A DNA stretch of 64,000 nt from an uncultured Candidatus Saccharibacteria bacterium (GCA_964639285.1 CAZXCI010000004.1:5252-69251), one strand, 5' to 3'. Positions 1-47,100 are shown, counted from the stretch's first letter. Notes: generated from the sequence alone by a model not told the origin. Numbers and translations: made by a program.

Positions 1-428
1 ATTCGGTCGATTTGCGAGCATAAAGACAATATTTGACCTTTTGGGTTGGTAAGGCCATTGGTTGGCTTATTTGGGCACTTATGGCTTGTATTTCCATATT
101 ATATTGATGACAGACCCCAAAACCTTGTAAAGCTATGCAGAATTGACCGTTTATTACATAATCGTGGGCTAGCTTTACAAATATTTTGATCAGCGATAGG
201 GTTGGACGGATACAATTTTTGGTTGTATTATTACATTAACAATTTAATAAGAGACCTAAACTTATTACTCCTAAGCATGGTCGTCAAATTCCCACCACGG
301 GTGCAAAAAACTCCTAGTCAGAGTTACCTGTGGTGGGTCATATTCCGAAAGGGATATGGGTGGTCCTCGGATCACCGGCTGGCTAGGAGCTTTTTGCAAC
401 TAGCCAGAACTCAAAACCCACCACGCAA

Positions 429-39655: not shown

Positions 39656-40672
39656 CTAACGGCCAAGATTCAGTGACAAACGCCATTTATAATACTCTCT
39701 GGTGACATCCACTCTTCCTTTCTTTTCCCCTCTCCAAGGGAAATAAGCAAATCTTGCTTTATAGGAATAGGTTTTGCCGACTTTCGGATTTCTAACGATA
39801 TACTGCCAATCCCAGGCTGGTCGGTGGGTGTTCCCGCTGAAATTGAATAATGCAAATCGTATTGGGAGGCATTGATTAAACATCATTAGGTAGCACATCG
39901 TGTCTCCTGTCGTTGAGAAATCTCCGTCGCCATCTACTAGGCCATAGTAGAATGGGGTATAGAATTTTCGTCCCTCATAATCATCTGAGAAGTTGTGAAC
40001 GGAGAAGTCAGGGTCCCATGGGTCGAACTCGAGTTCCTTTGTCCCAATTGAAGGTATTATCCCCTGATCGATCATTTCTTCTCCTCCTGGTGTTAGGCCG
40101 TTGCTATCTCCATAGCTACACCATCCCCATTGGTTATTGCTTGGGTCTCGACCCCAGAAGTAAATTCTTCGATCGATGGCAGCATCTACGTAACTTGCCC
40201 ACATGAAGCCAAGCCAGCCCTTAGTCCAAACATTCACCGTCGGTTTAGCTTGGAAGATCATGTCTAGGAAGTAGCTACTTAGGTGAAAACTCATCGAGCA
40301 CTCAACTCCCCAGGTTGATCCAATACTTGGCCAATAGAGTGTCCCTTTGTTTGGAGAAGAACTTGAGATAAAGCAGGGGTCTGTTTCCGGAGTAAATAGT
40401 TGACGCCAGCCATCATCTTTGTCTCCATTGAAGACATGCTCGAAGTAGCATCCCGCTTGCCAAAAAAGGTTTCTGTTCTCGAAAGACTTATCTTCCAGAT
40501 AACGAAACCCGTTGGTCCCTTCTCCCCCCACCAAAAAGGGGTTGTTACCAAATAGTTCTCCCAGGAAAATTGGTGTCTCCATAACAATACTTGGGTCTTC
40601 AAGCTCCTGACTTTGGCCTAGTGGAGAAACAATTGAGAGCACCACCACCAAGAACAATTTTGACAGCTTCAT
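39656..40672 (-). CDS. secreted Trp-rich hypothetical protein
   Basis: Signal peptide MKLSKLFLVVVLSIVSPLGQSQE; no known domain. Confidence 0.45.
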   Translation of the reverse strand: MKLSKLFLVVVLSIVSPLGQSQELEDPSIVMETPIFLGELFGNNPFLVGGEGTNGFRYLEDKSFENRNLFWQAGCYFEHVFNGDKDDGWRQLFTPETDPCFISSSSPNKGTLYWPSIGSTWGVECSMSFHLSSYFLDMIFQAKPTVNVWTKGWLGFMWASYVDAAIDRRIYFWGRDPSNNQWGWCSYGDSNGLTPGGEEMIDQGIIPSIGTKELEFDPWDPDFSVHNFSDDYEGRKFYTPFYYGLVDGDGDFSTTGDTMCYLMMFNQCLPIRFALFNFSGNTHRPAWDWQYIVRNPKVGKTYSYKARFAYFPWRGEKKGRVDVTREYYKWRLSLNLGR

Positions 40673-40841
40673 TTTTTCCTTCCTTTCTTAGTTGTTCAGT
40701 AGATTGAATTACAAATAACACTTCTAACTCTGTCTCTAGGGTAAAACTTTTACAGCATAATGTCAATTTATTTCACTATCCCCAGATTTCTTCAGTTTCT
40801 CCGACATTTTTTCTTTTTTCTTGGTATAATAAGGATGCCGT

Positions 40842-43800
40842 ATGTTGACCGTCCTGTCTAAGAAAGACATCAAGATCTTTGAGTGCCTTTTAGGTAGTCT
40901 GGTTTTTCTCGTTTTATTTTTCCCGCTAGTTTCCTCAGCTGTATTTACTAAACAAATCAATTACCAAGGCAAATTAACGGATGCCAGCGGGGTGGCTGTA
41001 GCTGATGGCAATTACAGTATCGAATTTAAGCTCTATGCCGCATCCTCTGGTGGTTCAGCTCTCTGGACAGAGACACAGACGGTGTCTGTCACCGGGGGGC
41101 TTTTCTCCACTATGCTGGGTTCGGTCACTTCGCTTGATGCTTTTGATTTTAATCAGGCCCTCTACTTAACTCTTAATGTCGAGGGCGATGGTGAGATGAC
41201 TCCGCGTAAGACCATTGGTTCAGTTCCCAATGCCTTTAACGCTGAAAAATTCGATGGTCTAGCCACCACATCGTTTGCTGTACTTAGTGCCGATAATATT
41301 TTCACGGGCCTGAATACTTTTTCGGCGACCACAACTTTGGCAACAACTACTTTAGCTTATGATACTTGGATTGGTAGTAACCTAACAAACAAGAGTATTC
41401 AGTTTTCGGACTACCTTTTTTCAAATGGAAGCTTTCTTGATGGCAGTAGTGTGAATCTTATAAAATCATTGAATGATTCTGGGTACTCATTGATTGCTGA
41501 GGATACCGTGGCGGCTTTGTCAATCGGTAATATTAATCCAGCTTTTTATTGGCTCAGTGATAGCTCTTCTGATTATGCCTATGCTCAGTTCGCCACCTCA
41601 ACAGGAATCTTGACTCTTGCCGGGGCCGACAGCTATTTGCTTGACGATAAAGTAGAGATTTCTGGGGGAGACCCTACTCTTGTCTCCGAGTTGACAACTT
41701 TACCCTATTCGGCAACAGGAGGGCATTCGGTTGAAATGAAAATTGTCGGTAATTATCTGTATATGAGTTTTGCTATTGATGGGGCCGGTAACCAATTTAG
41801 GATCTTAGACATCTCTGATCCGGCCAACCCGGAGATATTGGGGGGGGCAGACCTCTCTCTTCCCGGTCAGGCGAGAGGCTTGGATGTTGTCGGAAGATAC
41901 GCTTATGTCGGCTTTGAAGCCAGCGTCTTCCCCGGGGATGATGTCTTCAGAATAATAGACATCTCTGACCCAACTAACCCGGTTGTTGTTGGGGGAGAAG
42001 CTTTGACTTTTGATAACAGCGTAAGGTCTATCAAAGTCGTCGGAAAATACGCTTATCTAGGTATCTATCAATTTAATGGGACTCTCAATAAAAGCTTAGA
42101 CATTATCGATATCTCTGACCCCTATAATCCTCGGAAGGTTAGCCCGACGACAATCAGTGGCTTAACTGCAGAAGTTAGGTCTCTTGATGTCGTTGGCAAG
42201 TACGCTTATCTCGTGTCGTACTTTGATGACGACCTTCCAGGTTCAGAAAGCACAAACATTATGAGAATCGTAGATATCTCTAACCCAAGTAGTCCTGTTG
42301 TGGTTGGCGGATCATCTCTAACTTTACCTAATTACGCTAGGCAAATTGAAGTTGTCGGGCGCTATGCTTATGTAACTTTTGATGCTTTTGGCCCCCCCAT
42401 CGATAATGGTTTGCTTACTAGTCAATTTTTTAGAATAATAGATATCTCTGATCCAACCAGTCCAGTAGTAGTGGGAGGTGAGTCACTCCCCTTTGCAAAT
42501 GAATTTGAACCAAATGGGGGTATGAAGATGATGTTCATCGCGGATAACCTGGTCTATTCGGTGGGAAACAGTGAGACTAACAATGACACCTTTTATGTTA
42601 TTGATGTAGAAGAAGCTGATAATCCAAGTCTTTTGAAATCATTTAACACGGATTCAGGCGGTTCATCTGTTGGCATCTGGGGGATAGCTGTTTCTGGTAA
42701 TTATGTCTATCTCGGGCTTTCCGCGAATACTACCAATGTTGACACTCAGGTTGGCTTAAGGGTTATGGATCTAAGAGGGCTAGAAACAGGCTCAGCTAAT
42801 ATTAATTCTCTCAAAGTCGGTTCCTTAAATGTCTCTTCTGATCTAATTATTGGTGGAGATATCCAAGCCAATGGCTTAAGTACCGGTGTCGGGGGGATTG
42901 AGACAGATGGGATTCTGAGTATAAATGGTACCACTACCGCTAGTTATTTCGGTGGCTCTCTCGGTGTTGGTACCACTAGCCCAATATCTAAGTTATCGGT
43001 TGTAGGGACTACAACTTTATCCGTTGACAGCACCTATTGGCAGACATCCAAGTTCTTTATGAATGGCTATGGCGATATCCCTCTTCTTCTCGCACATGGT
43101 GCAAGCACTACTGACCCGACAACAACATATGATTTCGGGGCGATTAGCAATGGACTATATCTTGTCAACAATGACGGAGCCGACAACTTGCCTCTAACTT
43201 TTTTTCAAGTTGATGCGGCTGGCGATGCGGTCAGCGGGGGGTCATTAGTCTTTGATTTTGGTAGTAGTTACTTCACTTCCGATGCCAATTTTAACCCGAG
43301 CGACAACAATACTCTTGATTTGGGCTCTCCTGACTTGAGCTGGCGGGGTATTTATGCGAGCACAAGTATCAGTCTTGGCTCGCTTGATACCAATGGCCCT
43401 GTTTATTCTAATAATGGGTCTTTGACCAACGTCAATCCCTCTTCGCGGGATTATAAGGACAATATCACTGATGCCACCCTTAATATTGACGCTCTACTTG
43501 GCTTGCAGATAAAATCTTTTGTTTGGAAGACCAATGGTCAGAACGACTTCGGTTTGATCGCTGAAGAAATCAGAGATGTCTTGCCTGAACTCTATGTGGA
43601 TGATGGGGTAACCAAGGGTTATCGTTCTGGTCAATTACCATTCTATCTTCTTCAGATTGCTCAACGTCAAGAACAGAAGATTGCCGAGCTTGATACTCGA
43701 ATTGCTTCAGGCACAGTGGCGGTCGCCACCAGTAGTACCGAAACTCTCAATCTTCAGGCTATTCAATCGATTTCTGGCAATTGGAGTATCTCGGAAGACG

Positions 43801-44183
43801 GGACGCTTATTGCTAAGAATATCAAGGCCGAGAACGCTATTATCGAAAATGGCGTAACGGTCCGTGACCGAGCGACGGGAGATTATTCCTGCATCTTTGT
43901 TGAGGGTGGGACGGTTAAGACAAGTTCTGGCGAATGTCAGCCTGGAGTCTCGTCGATTCTTCCTTCGAGCGGAGGAGGAATCTCGTCTGGCGAAGAAGAG
44001 AGCGAGCCTGTTGCTACTAGCACAGAGGATGAAGTCGTCGCGACAACGACAGAACCTGTGGCAGCAGAACCAGATCCTGCCCCTGATGATTTGCCCTCTT
44101 CTGGCCCTGAAGAGGAGGCTCCTGCGCCCGATCCTGCTCCTCCAGTGGTAATTCCTGAAGAGACTTCTTCTCCAGCTGAGTAA
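40842..44183 (+). CDS. large surface protein: LVIVD beta-propeller repeats plus C-terminal phage tail-fibre intramolecular chaperone (peptidase S74) domain and Pro/acidic tail
   Basis: N-terminal TM/signal. Six repeats of R[IV]IDISDP.NP.VVGG with GxYAY motifs (LVIVD). The SSRDYKDNI...DALLGLQIKSF.WK...FGLIAEE...VLPELV....RSGQLPFYLLQIAQRQEQKIAELDTRIA block matches the S74 chaperone signature. TGnTATAAT promoter at ~40823. Confidence 0.6.
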   Translation: MLTVLSKKDIKIFECLLGSLVFLVLFFPLVSSAVFTKQINYQGKLTDASGVAVADGNYSIEFKLYAASSGGSALWTETQTVSVTGGLFSTMLGSVTSLDAFDFNQALYLTLNVEGDGEMTPRKTIGSVPNAFNAEKFDGLATTSFAVLSADNIFTGLNTFSATTTLATTTLAYDTWIGSNLTNKSIQFSDYLFSNGSFLDGSSVNLIKSLNDSGYSLIAEDTVAALSIGNINPAFYWLSDSSSDYAYAQFATSTGILTLAGADSYLLDDKVEISGGDPTLVSELTTLPYSATGGHSVEMKIVGNYLYMSFAIDGAGNQFRILDISDPANPEILGGADLSLPGQARGLDVVGRYAYVGFEASVFPGDDVFRIIDISDPTNPVVVGGEALTFDNSVRSIKVVGKYAYLGIYQFNGTLNKSLDIIDISDPYNPRKVSPTTISGLTAEVRSLDVVGKYAYLVSYFDDDLPGSESTNIMRIVDISNPSSPVVVGGSSLTLPNYARQIEVVGRYAYVTFDAFGPPIDNGLLTSQFFRIIDISDPTSPVVVGGESLPFANEFEPNGGMKMMFIADNLVYSVGNSETNNDTFYVIDVEEADNPSLLKSFNTDSGGSSVGIWGIAVSGNYVYLGLSANTTNVDTQVGLRVMDLRGLETGSANINSLKVGSLNVSSDLIIGGDIQANGLSTGVGGIETDGILSINGTTTASYFGGSLGVGTTSPISKLSVVGTTTLSVDSTYWQTSKFFMNGYGDIPLLLAHGASTTDPTTTYDFGAISNGLYLVNNDGADNLPLTFFQVDAAGDAVSGGSLVFDFGSSYFTSDANFNPSDNNTLDLGSPDLSWRGIYASTSISLGSLDTNGPVYSNNGSLTNVNPSSRDYKDNITDATLNIDALLGLQIKSFVWKTNGQNDFGLIAEEIRDVLPELYVDDGVTKGYRSGQLPFYLLQIAQRQEQKIAELDTRIASGTVAVATSSTETLNLQAIQSISGNWSISEDGTLIAKNIKAENAIIENGVTVRDRATGDYSCIFVEGGTVKTSSGECQPGVSSILPSSGGGISSGEEESEPVATSTEDEVVATTTEPVAAEPDPAPDDLPSSGPEEEAPAPDPAPPVVIPEETSSPAE

Positions 44184-44198
44184 AATTAAGTTATCAAC

Positions 44199-44224
44199 AG
44201 TTTATAAGAGTTCTTGTAGAACTC
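44199..44224 (+). terminator. rho-independent terminator
   Basis: AAGAGTTCTtgtAGAACTCTTTTT, a perfect 9-bp stem plus T-run. Confidence 0.7.
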
Positions 44225-44292
44225 TTTTTGGTTTAGAATAGGAATAGTTTTATCAGTTTTTATTATAAATTAGTAACTTTTTTGTAAAAAAA

Positions 44293-46688: not shown

Positions 46689-46689
46689 G

Positions 46690-47100
46690 CTGATCTGCTG
46701 TCTATAAGCCGAATTCTGTTATCGACAATTATTTATCTGGGATCAACATTGCTGTTGGCCTCTAGCGGCACTTCCCTCGATTTCTCTCGGGACACGGCCT
46801 TGCACTCAGGTAAGGATTTAGCACGTTTCAACAAAACCTTCGGTTTTGTTGTCCCTCCGTAGCTCATTAGAGCGAAGGGGGACAACGGACCTTATAATTT
46901 TGACGCCCTGCTTCGCATAAAGCTTCGCAGGGCGGATGTTTCCTTTCGTCAACATCCGTTTCTGTTCGCACCTCGTGGCTTACGCCAGACGGGCGTTACC
47001 CGCTACCCTGCTACCCGCACCGAAGTGTGGGTGAGTGTTCGGACTTTCCTCCCTATACCGTACGGTACGGGGCAATTGCCCGACAGCAGATCAGGATGAT
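46690..47100 (-). ncRNA. rnpB: RNase P RNA (bacterial type A)
   Basis: Minus strand contains GGGAGGAAAGTCCGAAC (P4 consensus GAGGAAAGUCCGG), AGGGTAGCGGGTAACGCCCGTC (GGGUAACGCC) and ACAGAAACGGAT. P1 helix 46693-46703 (gatctgctgtc) pairs with 47086-47096 (gacagcagatc). GC-rich with no ORF. Confidence 0.8.

What the first reader, a model, noticed from the sequence alone, without database searches (positions are those of the whole stretch)
40842..44183. Cell-surface giant protein combining LVIVD beta-propeller repeats with a phage tail-fibre intramolecular-chaperone (peptidase S74) autoproteolytic domain
There are six R[IV]IDISDP.NP.VVGG…GxYAYV repeats (LVIVD family). A C-terminal block carries the hallmark S74 chaperone sequence (SSRDYKDNI…LGLQIKSFVWK…FGLIAEEIRDVLPEL…QIAQRQEQKIAELDTRIA), which in phage tail spikes and endosialidases catalyses trimer folding and then self-cleaves at the conserved Ser. 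After it comes a Pro/Asp/Glu-rich tail. An N-terminal TM/signal and strong TGnTATAAT promoter and terminator indicate a highly expressed host surface protein. In a putative episymbiont this could be an adhesin that self-processes like a tail fibre, or a domesticated phage receptor-binding protein.
Basis: partly seen in the sequence, partly recalled or inferred. Interest (0 to 1): 0.6.

Follow-up and report, generated by a model that had tools for sequence, protein, structure and literature searches.

The report
Self-cleaving surface fibre of a CPR bacterium
This chromosomal gene of an uncultured Patescibacteria (CPR) bacterium encodes a secreted fibre-type surface protein with a beta-propeller and an internal phage-style self-cleaving folding domain; it belongs to a large, uncharacterised CPR family distantly related to the prey-recognition fibres of Bdellovibrio, so it is a candidate host-attachment protein rather than a stray phage gene.

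Summary
Window 40842-44183 (+) is one 1113-aa ORF. It matches LVIVD (Pfam E 8e-24; seven blades, not six) and Peptidase_S74 (31.6 bits, cutoff 22). Ser867 and Lys872 sit in the catalytic columns of solved S74 chaperones.

- The protein is not a lone chimera or a recently captured phage receptor-binding protein. Only the S74 module resembles phage proteins (29-38% identity). The gene sits among housekeeping genes.
- It belongs to a large Patescibacteria family: signal peptide, invariant 'INYQGKLT' beta-sandwich N-domain, variable middle, then a C-terminal 'GNWSI..DG' two-Cys module and an acidic Pro-rich tail.
- All 31 N-domains tested match NCBIfam Bdello_MAT_N and nothing else, but below its cutoff. 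That family is the Bdellovibrio mosaic adhesive trimer fibres, 13 of 21 of which end in S74.
- S74 is internal here: 157 residues follow it. Relatives without S74 carry a Peptidase_G2-like autoproteolytic chaperone at the same position.

Best model: a MAT-like trimeric adhesin. S74 templates the preceding stalk and then cuts at Pro866|Ser867, separating an 833-aa fibre from a 247-aa C-terminal piece. Cleavage, trimer state, location and ligand are all inferred.

Verdict: new variant of a known kind, moderate interest.

The parts
40822..40830 (+). Extended -10-like element TGGTATAAT, with CCGACA as a possible -35 at 40801-40806.
   Evidence: This is a consensus match only. It ends 11 nt before the ATG and overlaps an AAGGA that could instead be a ribosome-binding site.
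40842..40940 (+). Signal peptide, aa 1-33 (MLTVLSKKDIKIFECLLGSLVFLVLFFPLVSSA|VF).
   Evidence: Read from the sequence. Equivalent A/S-x-A sites occur 4-6 residues before INYQGKL in 40 relatives. No predictor was run.
40941..41321 (+). Conserved N-domain, aa 34-160, with the 'INYQGKLT' motif; a beta-sandwich distantly homologous to the Bdellovibrio MAT N-terminal domain.
   Evidence: Present and always N-terminal in 43 of 121 relatives. All 31 of 31 tested match NCBIfam NF053851 and nothing else; the best E-value is 5e-11 and the scores seen for the window protein (30.2 and 35.2 bits) are below the 60-bit cutoff. No Pfam match. The AF2 core has pLDDT 86-97 and is all-beta. 85% identical to P0002.
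41322..41711 (+). Poorly conserved Thr/Ser-rich linker region, aa 161-290.
   Evidence: Only 4 of 121 relatives match it. 33% identity to P0002.
41712..42806 (+). LVIVD beta-propeller, aa 291-655, seven blades.
   Evidence: Pfam PF08309 E 8e-24. Blade motifs are listed. TIGR04312 choice_anch_B scores 52 bits, below its cutoff of 100. 31% identity to P0002.
42807..43439 (+). Stalk, aa 656-866, presumed trimeric beta-helix or fibre; contains the motif GVGTTSPISKLSV and ends at the predicted scissile bond after Pro866.
   Evidence: 18 relatives match it. AF2 gives beta-strands at pLDDT 71-80 for aa 656-695 and below 50 for most of aa 698-872. PHROGs tail-fibre families match aa 810-920 at E 1e-5. 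An allele hot spot lies at aa 738-743.
43440..43709 (+). Peptidase S74 intramolecular chaperone domain, aa 867-956. Ser867 is codon 43440-43442 and Lys872 is codon 43455-43457. It contains the G904-L-I-A907-E-E core and a long C-terminal helix at aa 929-955.
   Evidence: Pfam 31.6 bits against a cutoff of 22. S, K, G and A are invariant in alignment A1. The profile hits PDB 8jov (7e-14), 6f45 (9e-13), MYRF 7dc3 (4e-9), T5 8hqz (4e-6) and GA-1 3gud (6e-4). The 3gud chain starts at the residue aligned with Ser867. The five best Foldseek hits are chains of 3gw6.
43710..43949 (+). Post-S74 module, aa 957-1036 ('GNWSISEDG..GVTVRDRATGDYSC..GEC'), of unknown function. It holds the only two Cys of the mature protein (C1017, C1032).
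   Evidence: Found near the C-terminus of 23 of 121 relatives, with or without S74. 33 of the 150 nearest representatives have S74 followed by this module. AF2 pLDDT is 77-93. No family or PDB match.
43950..44183 (+). Acidic Pro/Glu/Ser/Thr-rich low-complexity tail, aa 1037-1113, plus the stop codon.
   Evidence: 15 Pro, 19 Asp+Glu and no Lys or Arg. All relatives with the post-module have a comparable tail. None has a hydrophobic anchor or an LPXTG motif.
44206..44231 (+). Terminator-like hairpin (9-bp stem, 3 G-C pairs) followed by a T-run.
   Evidence: This is a consensus match only.

Best explanation
The gene encodes a secreted surface fibre or adhesin of a Patescibacteria (Paceibacterota-like) bacterium. 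It is built on the same plan as the Bdellovibrio 'mosaic adhesive trimer' (MAT) fibres.

Proposed steps:
1. After Sec export and signal-peptide removal at about Ala33, the conserved N-terminal beta-sandwich (aa 34-160) holds the protein at the cell surface.
2. The fast-evolving linker and the seven-bladed LVIVD propeller (aa 161-655) form the ligand-binding part.
3. The stalk (aa 656-866) folds into a trimeric beta-helical fibre, templated by the S74 intramolecular chaperone (aa 867-956).
4. Once the trimer is formed, Ser867, activated by Lys872, cuts the Pro866|Ser867 bond.
5. This separates an 833-aa mature fibre from a 247-aa C-terminal piece made of S74, the two-Cys module and the acidic tail. 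That piece is shed and exposes the distal end of the stalk, as in phage T5 pb1 and Bd3182.

Shown here: the domain identities, the conserved catalytic residues, the family architecture and the chromosomal non-phage context.

Inferred: the trimeric state, actual cleavage, which end faces the cell, surface location, and binding to a host cell.
For: - Pfam LVIVD and S74 both score above their gathering cutoffs.
- S867 and K872 are invariant in relatives and lie in the catalytic columns of solved S74 domains. The released GA-1 chaperone chain 3gud begins at the aligned Ser. The best Foldseek hits are chains of 3gw6.
- The N-domain matches Bdello_MAT_N in all 31 of 31 family members tested and matches no other family. 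It directly follows the signal peptide, as described for MATs.
- In MATs, S74 cleavage was shown experimentally for Bd3182 (PMC10769870).
- 31 of the 150 nearest S74 representatives combine this N-domain with S74.
- Relatives without S74 carry a Peptidase_G2-like autoproteolytic chaperone in the same position: 5 of 11 match, best E 1.7e-8, and the only PDB hit is phi29 gp12 3gqh. So a self-removing chaperone at this site is a family trait.
- The ends are conserved (85-89% identity) and the middle is variable (31-33%).
- The context is housekeeping genes here and in relatives.
- Named relatives are almost all Patescibacteria.
Against: - S74 is not C-terminal. 157 residues follow it, including a module conserved across the family even where no S74 or G2-like block was detected (P0005, P0012). 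That is odd for a piece that is simply thrown away.
- The MAT_N match scores 30-35 bits against a 60-bit cutoff and covers only model positions 14-78 of 162. No Bdellovibrio protein appeared among the 120 listed N-domain hits.
- The stalk model is unreliable (pLDDT below 50), and no trimer prediction was possible.
- A globular propeller in the middle of a fibre has no counterpart among the described MATs.
- There is no experimental or expression evidence of any kind.
Confidence: 0.6

Rival explanations
1. MYRF-like release. The conserved C-terminal two-Cys module plus acidic Pro-rich tail is the element that holds the protein in the cell envelope. S74 trimerisation and self-cleavage then release the N-terminal trimer (N-domain, propeller, stalk) from the cell as a soluble or host-bound fibre.
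For: - S74 is internal, as in MYRF, and the MYRF chaperone domain 7dc3 is hit at 4e-9.
- The post-module and tail are conserved at the C-terminus across the family regardless of the preceding module.
- Pro-rich segments span the wall in many monoderm surface proteins (general knowledge).
Against: - There is no hydrophobic segment, LPXTG motif or known wall-binding domain in the C-terminal 157 residues.
- The tail carries 19 acidic residues and no basic ones.
- The homologous N-domain is the proposed cell-proximal end in MATs.
Confidence: 0.15
2. S74 acts only as a trimerisation and folding module and does not cleave, or it stays attached. The post-module would then be the true distal tip of an uncleaved 1080-aa fibre.
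For: - The post-module is a confidently predicted small folded unit (pLDDT 77-93).
- It occupies the C-terminal 'tip' position, which in non-S74 MATs is the adhesive domain.
- Other S74 relatives carry a different folded module after S74.
Against: - Ser and Lys are invariant in all 23 aligned relatives, which argues for retained catalysis.
- A low-complexity acidic tail follows the module, so the module is not the terminal residue cluster.
- The post-module is conserved (80% identity to P0002), whereas adhesive tips are expected to vary.
Confidence: 0.12
3. It is a phage or prophage tail-fibre gene, or a recently domesticated phage receptor-binding protein, sitting in the bacterial chromosome.
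For: - S74 is best known from phage tail fibres and spikes.
- Weak PHROGs tail-fibre hits, E 1e-5.
- 120 phage records match the S74 part.
Against: - Phage matches cover only aa ~846-981 at 29-38% identity. Nothing in phages matches the N-domain or linker.
- The neighbours are HtpX, class II RNR, RNase P RNA, MurJ and GroEL, with no phage genes. Relatives show the same kind of context.
- GC content matches the flanks.
- A Sec signal peptide is not a feature of virion fibres.
Confidence: 0.05

Closest known systems
Bdellovibrio bacteriovorus MAT (mosaic adhesive trimer) fibres, S74 subgroup, e.g. Bd3182 (Caulton et al. 2024, PMC10769870)
   Same: - A cellular (not phage) secreted protein of about 1000 aa.
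- A signal peptide followed directly by a conserved beta-rich N-domain; an NCBIfam Bdello_MAT_N match is seen in every family member tested.
- A fibre or stalk followed by an S74 chaperone with the S-x4-K motif.
- Encoded by a bacterium that lives on other bacteria.
   Different: - The N-domain match is below the curated cutoff and partial.
- The organism is a Patescibacteria bacterium (taken here, from general knowledge, to have a single-membrane envelope), a lineage absent from the paper's list of MAT-bearing taxa.
- A seven-bladed LVIVD propeller sits in the middle of the chain.
- S74 is followed by a further conserved module and an acidic tail, instead of ending the protein.
- The C-terminus is conserved and the middle is variable, the reverse of the MAT 'tip-swapping' pattern.
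Phage C-terminal intramolecular chaperone domains (MEROPS S74): K1F endosialidase endoNF (3GW6), T5 L-shaped tail fibre pb1 (8hqz), GA-1 neck appendage (3gud)
   Same: - Pfam family, Ser/Lys dyad, G-x-I-A-[EQ]-E core and terminal helix.
- Position immediately after a fibre or beta-helix.
   Different: - Only 29-38% identity to any phage in the collection.
- Not at the C-terminus.
- The protein has a Sec signal and a cellular N-domain.
- No virion context.
Eukaryotic MYRF intramolecular chaperone (ICA) domain (7dc3)
   Same: An internal S74-type domain whose cleavage separates an N-terminal trimer from a C-terminal portion. The profile hit is E 4e-9.
   Different: - MYRF's C-terminal part contains a transmembrane anchor; here there is none.
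- Unrelated flanking domains and biology.
LVIVD-repeat / 'choice-of-anchor B' surface proteins (PF08309, TIGR04312)
   Same: Tandem LVIVD blades in a secreted protein.
   Different: - The TIGR04312 score is 52 bits against a cutoff of 100.
- Typical members end in sorting signals (PEP-CTERM, T9SS and similar), not in an autoproteolytic chaperone.

Membership tests
Peptidase S74 / C-terminal intramolecular chaperone domain (PF13884) | Match to the family HMM above the curated gathering score | tested here: met
   31.6 bits against 22, E 2.1e-7, model positions 1-56 of 58, aa 867-917.
Peptidase S74 / C-terminal intramolecular chaperone domain (PF13884) | Catalytic Ser...Lys dyad (S-x4-K; 'SDxxxK') | tested here: met
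   The dyad is S867-S-R-D-Y-K872. Ser and Lys are invariant in 23 relatives. They align with SDERLK of 8jov, SDRRIK of 6f45 and SGIEYK of T5. The 3gud chain starts at this Ser. Position 2 is Ser rather than Asp.
Peptidase S74 / C-terminal intramolecular chaperone domain (PF13884) | Conserved G-x-I-A-[EQ]-E core and long C-terminal helix | tested here: met
   G904 and A907 are invariant. AF2 predicts a helix at aa 929-955, at moderate confidence (pLDDT 60-67). Weak Foldseek hits to 3gw6.
Peptidase S74 / C-terminal intramolecular chaperone domain (PF13884) | Domain lies at the extreme C-terminus of the polypeptide | tested here: not met
   157 residues follow the domain. This is common among its nearest relatives: 60 of 136 have more than 60 residues after S74.
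Peptidase S74 / C-terminal intramolecular chaperone domain (PF13884) | Preceded by a trimeric beta-helix or fibre whose folding depends on it | tested here: inconclusive
   The monomer AF2 model of aa 656-866 is mostly below pLDDT 50, with beta-strands only for aa 656-700. No multimer tool was available.
Peptidase S74 / C-terminal intramolecular chaperone domain (PF13884) | Autoproteolytic release of the domain | not testable with these tools
   Needs recombinant protein with and without S867A, or proteomics.
LVIVD repeat beta-propeller (PF08309) | Tandem repeats matching the HMM above the gathering score | tested here: met
   83.2 bits against 20.2, in 5 stretches. Seven blades by motif.
LVIVD repeat beta-propeller (PF08309) | Closed propeller fold | not tested
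Bdellovibrio MAT fibre family (NCBIfam NF053851 Bdello_MAT_N; PMC10769870) | Signal peptide followed immediately by a conserved ~130-aa beta-rich N-domain | tested here: met
   The predicted cleavage site ..SSA|VF lies 5 residues before INYQGKL. The AF2 model is a beta-sandwich with a core pLDDT of 86-97.
Bdellovibrio MAT fibre family (NCBIfam NF053851 Bdello_MAT_N; PMC10769870) | Score at or above the curated NF053851 cutoff (60 bits) | tested here: not met
   30.2 bits for the whole protein and 35.2 bits for the isolated domain, over model positions 14-78 of 162. Even so, 31 of 31 relatives match at E <= 0.01, best 5e-11. This makes it a distant homologue, not a member of the Bdellovibrio subfamily.
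Bdellovibrio MAT fibre family (NCBIfam NF053851 Bdello_MAT_N; PMC10769870) | Trimeric along its whole length; surface-exposed; binds another cell | not testable with these tools
   No multimer prediction and no experiment.
Bdellovibrio MAT fibre family (NCBIfam NF053851 Bdello_MAT_N; PMC10769870) | Ends in S74 or an alternative tip domain | tested here: inconclusive
   S74 is present but is followed by a conserved module and tail.
Choice-of-anchor B (TIGR04312) | Score at or above the curated cutoff (100 bits) | tested here: not met
   52.4 bits.

The most novel reading that the evidence does not exclude
Patescibacteria carry a phylum-wide family of MAT-like host-recognition fibres, of which this protein is the LVIVD/S74 version. 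The family would be homologous to the prey-recognition fibres of Bdellovibrio.

Its members would share:
- a conserved N-terminal base;
- swappable binding modules;
- interchangeable self-cleaving chaperones (S74 or G2-type);
- a CPR-specific C-terminal module whose removal acts as a maturation switch.

If so, these fibres would be primary determinants of which host cell an episymbiont attaches to.
Probability: 0.25. Interest if true: 0.75.

Novelty: new variant of a known kind. Interest (0 to 1): 0.5.

Why it matters
How ultrasmall CPR/Patescibacteria recognise and hold on to their host cells is largely unknown beyond type IV pili (abstracts listed). Searches of the held literature found no paper linking S74 or LVIVD proteins to this phylum.

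This gene exemplifies a large, modular surface-protein family in that phylum. Its N-domain ties it to the experimentally studied prey-binding fibres of Bdellovibrio. That link supplies concrete candidates for host-specificity determinants.

It also supplies a simple biochemical test: self-cleavage at Ser867, which can be done in E. coli without culturing the organism.

Two further points bear on how autoproteolytic chaperones are used outside viruses. S74 is internal here, and it is exchangeable with a G2-type chaperone in front of a shared C-terminal module.

Tried and rejected
- Single-sequence phmmer of aa 649-1113 and aa 1-300 against PDB found nothing useful. A family profile was needed.
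- The search for homologous proteins with the 186-aa S74+post segment returned no hit, not even the query's own protein. I treat this as a word-index miss, not as biology.
- The single-protein scan of GTDB genomes gave only two distant loci, so the species is not among the representatives.
- Exact look-ups of the protein and its neighbours returned no source names. The organism is therefore inferred only from named relatives: Paceibacterota, Buchananbacteria, Vogelbacteria and others.
- Foldseek of the N-domain against BFVD and PDB gave only generic Ig-like sandwiches, TM 0.3-0.5. The PDB profile search gave nothing significant.
- The AF2 monomer model of aa 656-1040 was too poor in the stalk to interpret.
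- No paralogue of any module exists elsewhere in the window.
- Prophage origin was rejected on context and on the limited phage similarity.
- 'Strong promoter, highly expressed' was rejected as unsupported.
Full report
**1. Observation**

Window 40842-44183 (+) is one ORF of 1113 aa. The identical protein is on record in a public metagenome assembly, with the same neighbours.

Pfam gives LVIVD at E 8e-24 (83 bits, cutoff 20) and Peptidase_S74 at E 2e-7 (31.6 bits, cutoff 22, aa 867-917).

Reading the sequence gives seven propeller blades, not six. Five have canonical xI[IVL]DIS[DN]P turns and two are degenerate. The acidic Pro-rich tail is real: 15 Pro, 19 Asp+Glu, no Lys or Arg.

The N-terminus looks like a Sec signal peptide with an S-S-A|V site. 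Relatives have equivalent sites just before the same conserved motif.

A TGGTATAAT element and a hairpin with a T-run flank the gene. However, such sites are not enriched over shuffles, and the -10 element lies only 11 nt from the ATG. 'Strong promoter' and 'highly expressed' are not established.

**2. Is S74 competent?**

The motif S867-S-R-D-Y-K872 fits the S-x4-K dyad. In 23 aligned relatives, Ser, Lys, Gly904 and Ala907 are invariant.

A profile of these domains hits solved S74 chaperones:
- phage fibre 8jov (7e-14);
- phage fibre 6f45 (9e-13);
- MYRF 7dc3 (4e-9);
- T5 pb1 8hqz (4e-6);
- GA-1 appendage 3gud (6e-4).

The released GA-1 chaperone chain starts exactly at the residue aligned with Ser867. 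That places the predicted scissile bond at Pro866|Ser867.

The AF2 monomer model is poor overall (mean pLDDT 53). It does give the expected long terminal helix at aa 929-955, and its five best PDB matches are all chains of endosialidase chaperone 3GW6, at E about 1e-2.

**3. What the protein is part of**

The full-length search returned 829 relatives. The best named ones are Patescibacteria: Paceibacterota, Buchananbacteria and Vogelbacteria. About 23 of the top 120 carry both Pfam families, and NCBI names some of them 'tail fiber domain-containing protein'.

Local domain mapping shows a modular family:
- a signal peptide;
- an N-domain with an almost invariant INYQGKLT motif, present in 43 of 121 relatives and always N-terminal;
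- a variable middle;
- near the C-terminus, a 'GNWSI..DG' module with two Cys, present in 23 of 121 relatives with or without S74;
- an acidic Pro-rich tail with no hydrophobic anchor and no LPXTG motif.

Against the closest full-length relative (P0002), identity is N-domain 85%, linker 33%, propeller 31%, stalk 70%, S74 89%, post-module 80% and tail 40%. Both ends are conserved and the middle is variable.

**4. The MAT link**

NCBIfam reported an unexpected N-terminal match to Bdello_MAT_N. When the N-domains of 31 family members were scanned separately, all 31 matched this model and no other. The best E-value was 5e-11, and the window protein scores 30-35 bits against a 60-bit curated cutoff. 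None matched any Pfam family.

The MAT paper describes 21 Bdellovibrio fibres. [quoted passage not shown] Thirteen end in S74 with SDxxxK. Self-cleavage was demonstrated for Bd3182 and blocked by S782A. The N-domain is proposed to sit at the cell surface (PMC10769870).

The paper's supplementary list of MAT proteins in other taxa includes Omnitrophica, PVC and FCB bacteria. It has no Patescibacteria and no propeller.

The AF2 model of the N-domain is a confident beta-sandwich with a core pLDDT of 86-97. It has no specific match in PDB or BFVD. That agrees with the paper's remark that the MAT N-domain has no PDB homologue, but it does not test the link. The decisive comparison with AFDB models could not be run.

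The N-domain profile search returned 437 proteins. The named ones are nearly all CPR lineages, plus a few Omnitrophota.

**5. S74 is internal, and it is exchangeable**

The exhaustive search with aa 850-1036 found 2841 representatives at E <= 1e-3. Among the best 150:
- 136 carry S74;
- 31 combine it with the N-domain;
- 8 combine it with LVIVD;
- 33 have S74 followed by the post-module;
- 60 have more than 60 residues after S74.

Relatives that lack S74 but keep the N-domain and post-module carry another conserved block of about 150 aa just before the post-module. Five of 11 such blocks match Pfam Peptidase_G2, the autoproteolytic chaperone of phi29 gp12, with a best E of 1.7e-8. The block's only PDB profile hit, though weak (E 0.06), is the gp12 auto-chaperone 3gqh.

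Two unrelated self-cleaving chaperones at the same position argue that self-removal is part of how the family works. Two relatives (P0005, P0012) have the post-module without either chaperone, so the post-module is not merely an appendage of the chaperone.

**6. Not a phage gene**

tblastn against 50,697 phage records matches only the S74 part, at 29-38% identity. The N-domain and linker match nothing.

The neighbours are HtpX, class II ribonucleotide reductase, RNase P RNA, MurJ, GroEL, RNase J and a helicase-nuclease. Relatives lie among other housekeeping genes, with no shared synteny. GC content matches the flanks.

**7. Mechanism**

The best-supported model is a MAT-like trimeric adhesin. 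S74 templates the stalk, then cuts at Pro866|Ser867. An 833-aa fibre (N-domain, propeller, stalk) is left, and a 247-aa C-terminal piece is shed.

By analogy with T5 pb1 and Bd3182, cleavage would expose the distal stalk. The fast-evolving propeller would supply a second binding surface.

The main uncertainty is which end is cell-proximal and what the conserved C-terminal module does. A MYRF-like release from a C-terminal tether, and a non-cleaving trimerisation role for S74, remain possible.

**8. Verdict**

The finding is real and its domain calls are correct. It is a member of an existing but uncharacterised Patescibacteria family, not a one-off chimera or a domesticated phage gene.

Relative to the known kind (cellular S74-type MAT fibres), it is a new variant in four respects:
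- a different phylum;
- an LVIVD propeller insert;
- an internal S74 followed by a CPR-specific module;
- S74/G2 interchange within the family.

Interest is moderate (0.5).

Noticed in passing
Relatives P0004, P0062, P0100, P0060, P0110, P0083, P0114, P0045, P0084, P0101, P0067 (alignment A3): Family members without S74 carry a conserved ~150-aa block (DLAENYP...IGVVST.PG...PVALSGRVPVKVN.EGG.I..GD.I..SS.PG.G.KA) just before the shared post-module. Five of 11 match Pfam Peptidase_G2 IMC (best E 1.7e-8). The only PDB profile hit is the phi29 gp12 auto-chaperone 3gqh (E 0.06).
   Followed up: partly
Relatives P0008, P0010, P0017, P0019, P0020, P0029, P0053: In these S74-bearing relatives, S74 is followed by a different conserved module (...FYGTITVIGEAGF.SKV.F.DHVYF..D.AG.A....GATS..V.F.KPYE..P.I..TP) instead of the GNWSI module. 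Several alternative domains can therefore sit downstream of S74 in this family.
   Followed up: no
window 43053-43070 (aa 738-743 of the stalk): A 99%-identical allele from another sample (P0121) differs at only 11 sites. Four of them are packed into six residues (F738L, M740V, N741E, Y743R). This could be a small diversifying patch or a recombination tract.
   Followed up: no
window 40822-40841: The TGGTATAAT -10-like element ends 11 nt before the start codon and overlaps an AAGGA. The transcript is either nearly leaderless or the AAGGA is the ribosome-binding site and the promoter lies elsewhere.
   Followed up: no
window 39656-40672 (-): A divergently transcribed 338-aa ORF with an N-terminal signal-like sequence (MKLSKLFLVVVLSIVSPLGQSQ). 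It has no Pfam match, and its exact sequence is not in the protein collection.
   Followed up: partly
window 253-376 (+) and 46689-47091 (-): Rfam finds a LOOT RNA (68 bits, gathering score 46) near the window start, and a bacterial class A RNase P RNA (111 bits) just downstream of the ribonucleotide reductase gene. Seven tRNA genes are also present.
   Followed up: no
L006 4723-5859 (+), upstream of relative P0003: The gene immediately upstream of the 41%-identical relative encodes a 378-aa protein with faint LVIVD hits. This may be a second propeller protein next to the fibre gene; nothing comparable flanks the window gene.
   Followed up: no
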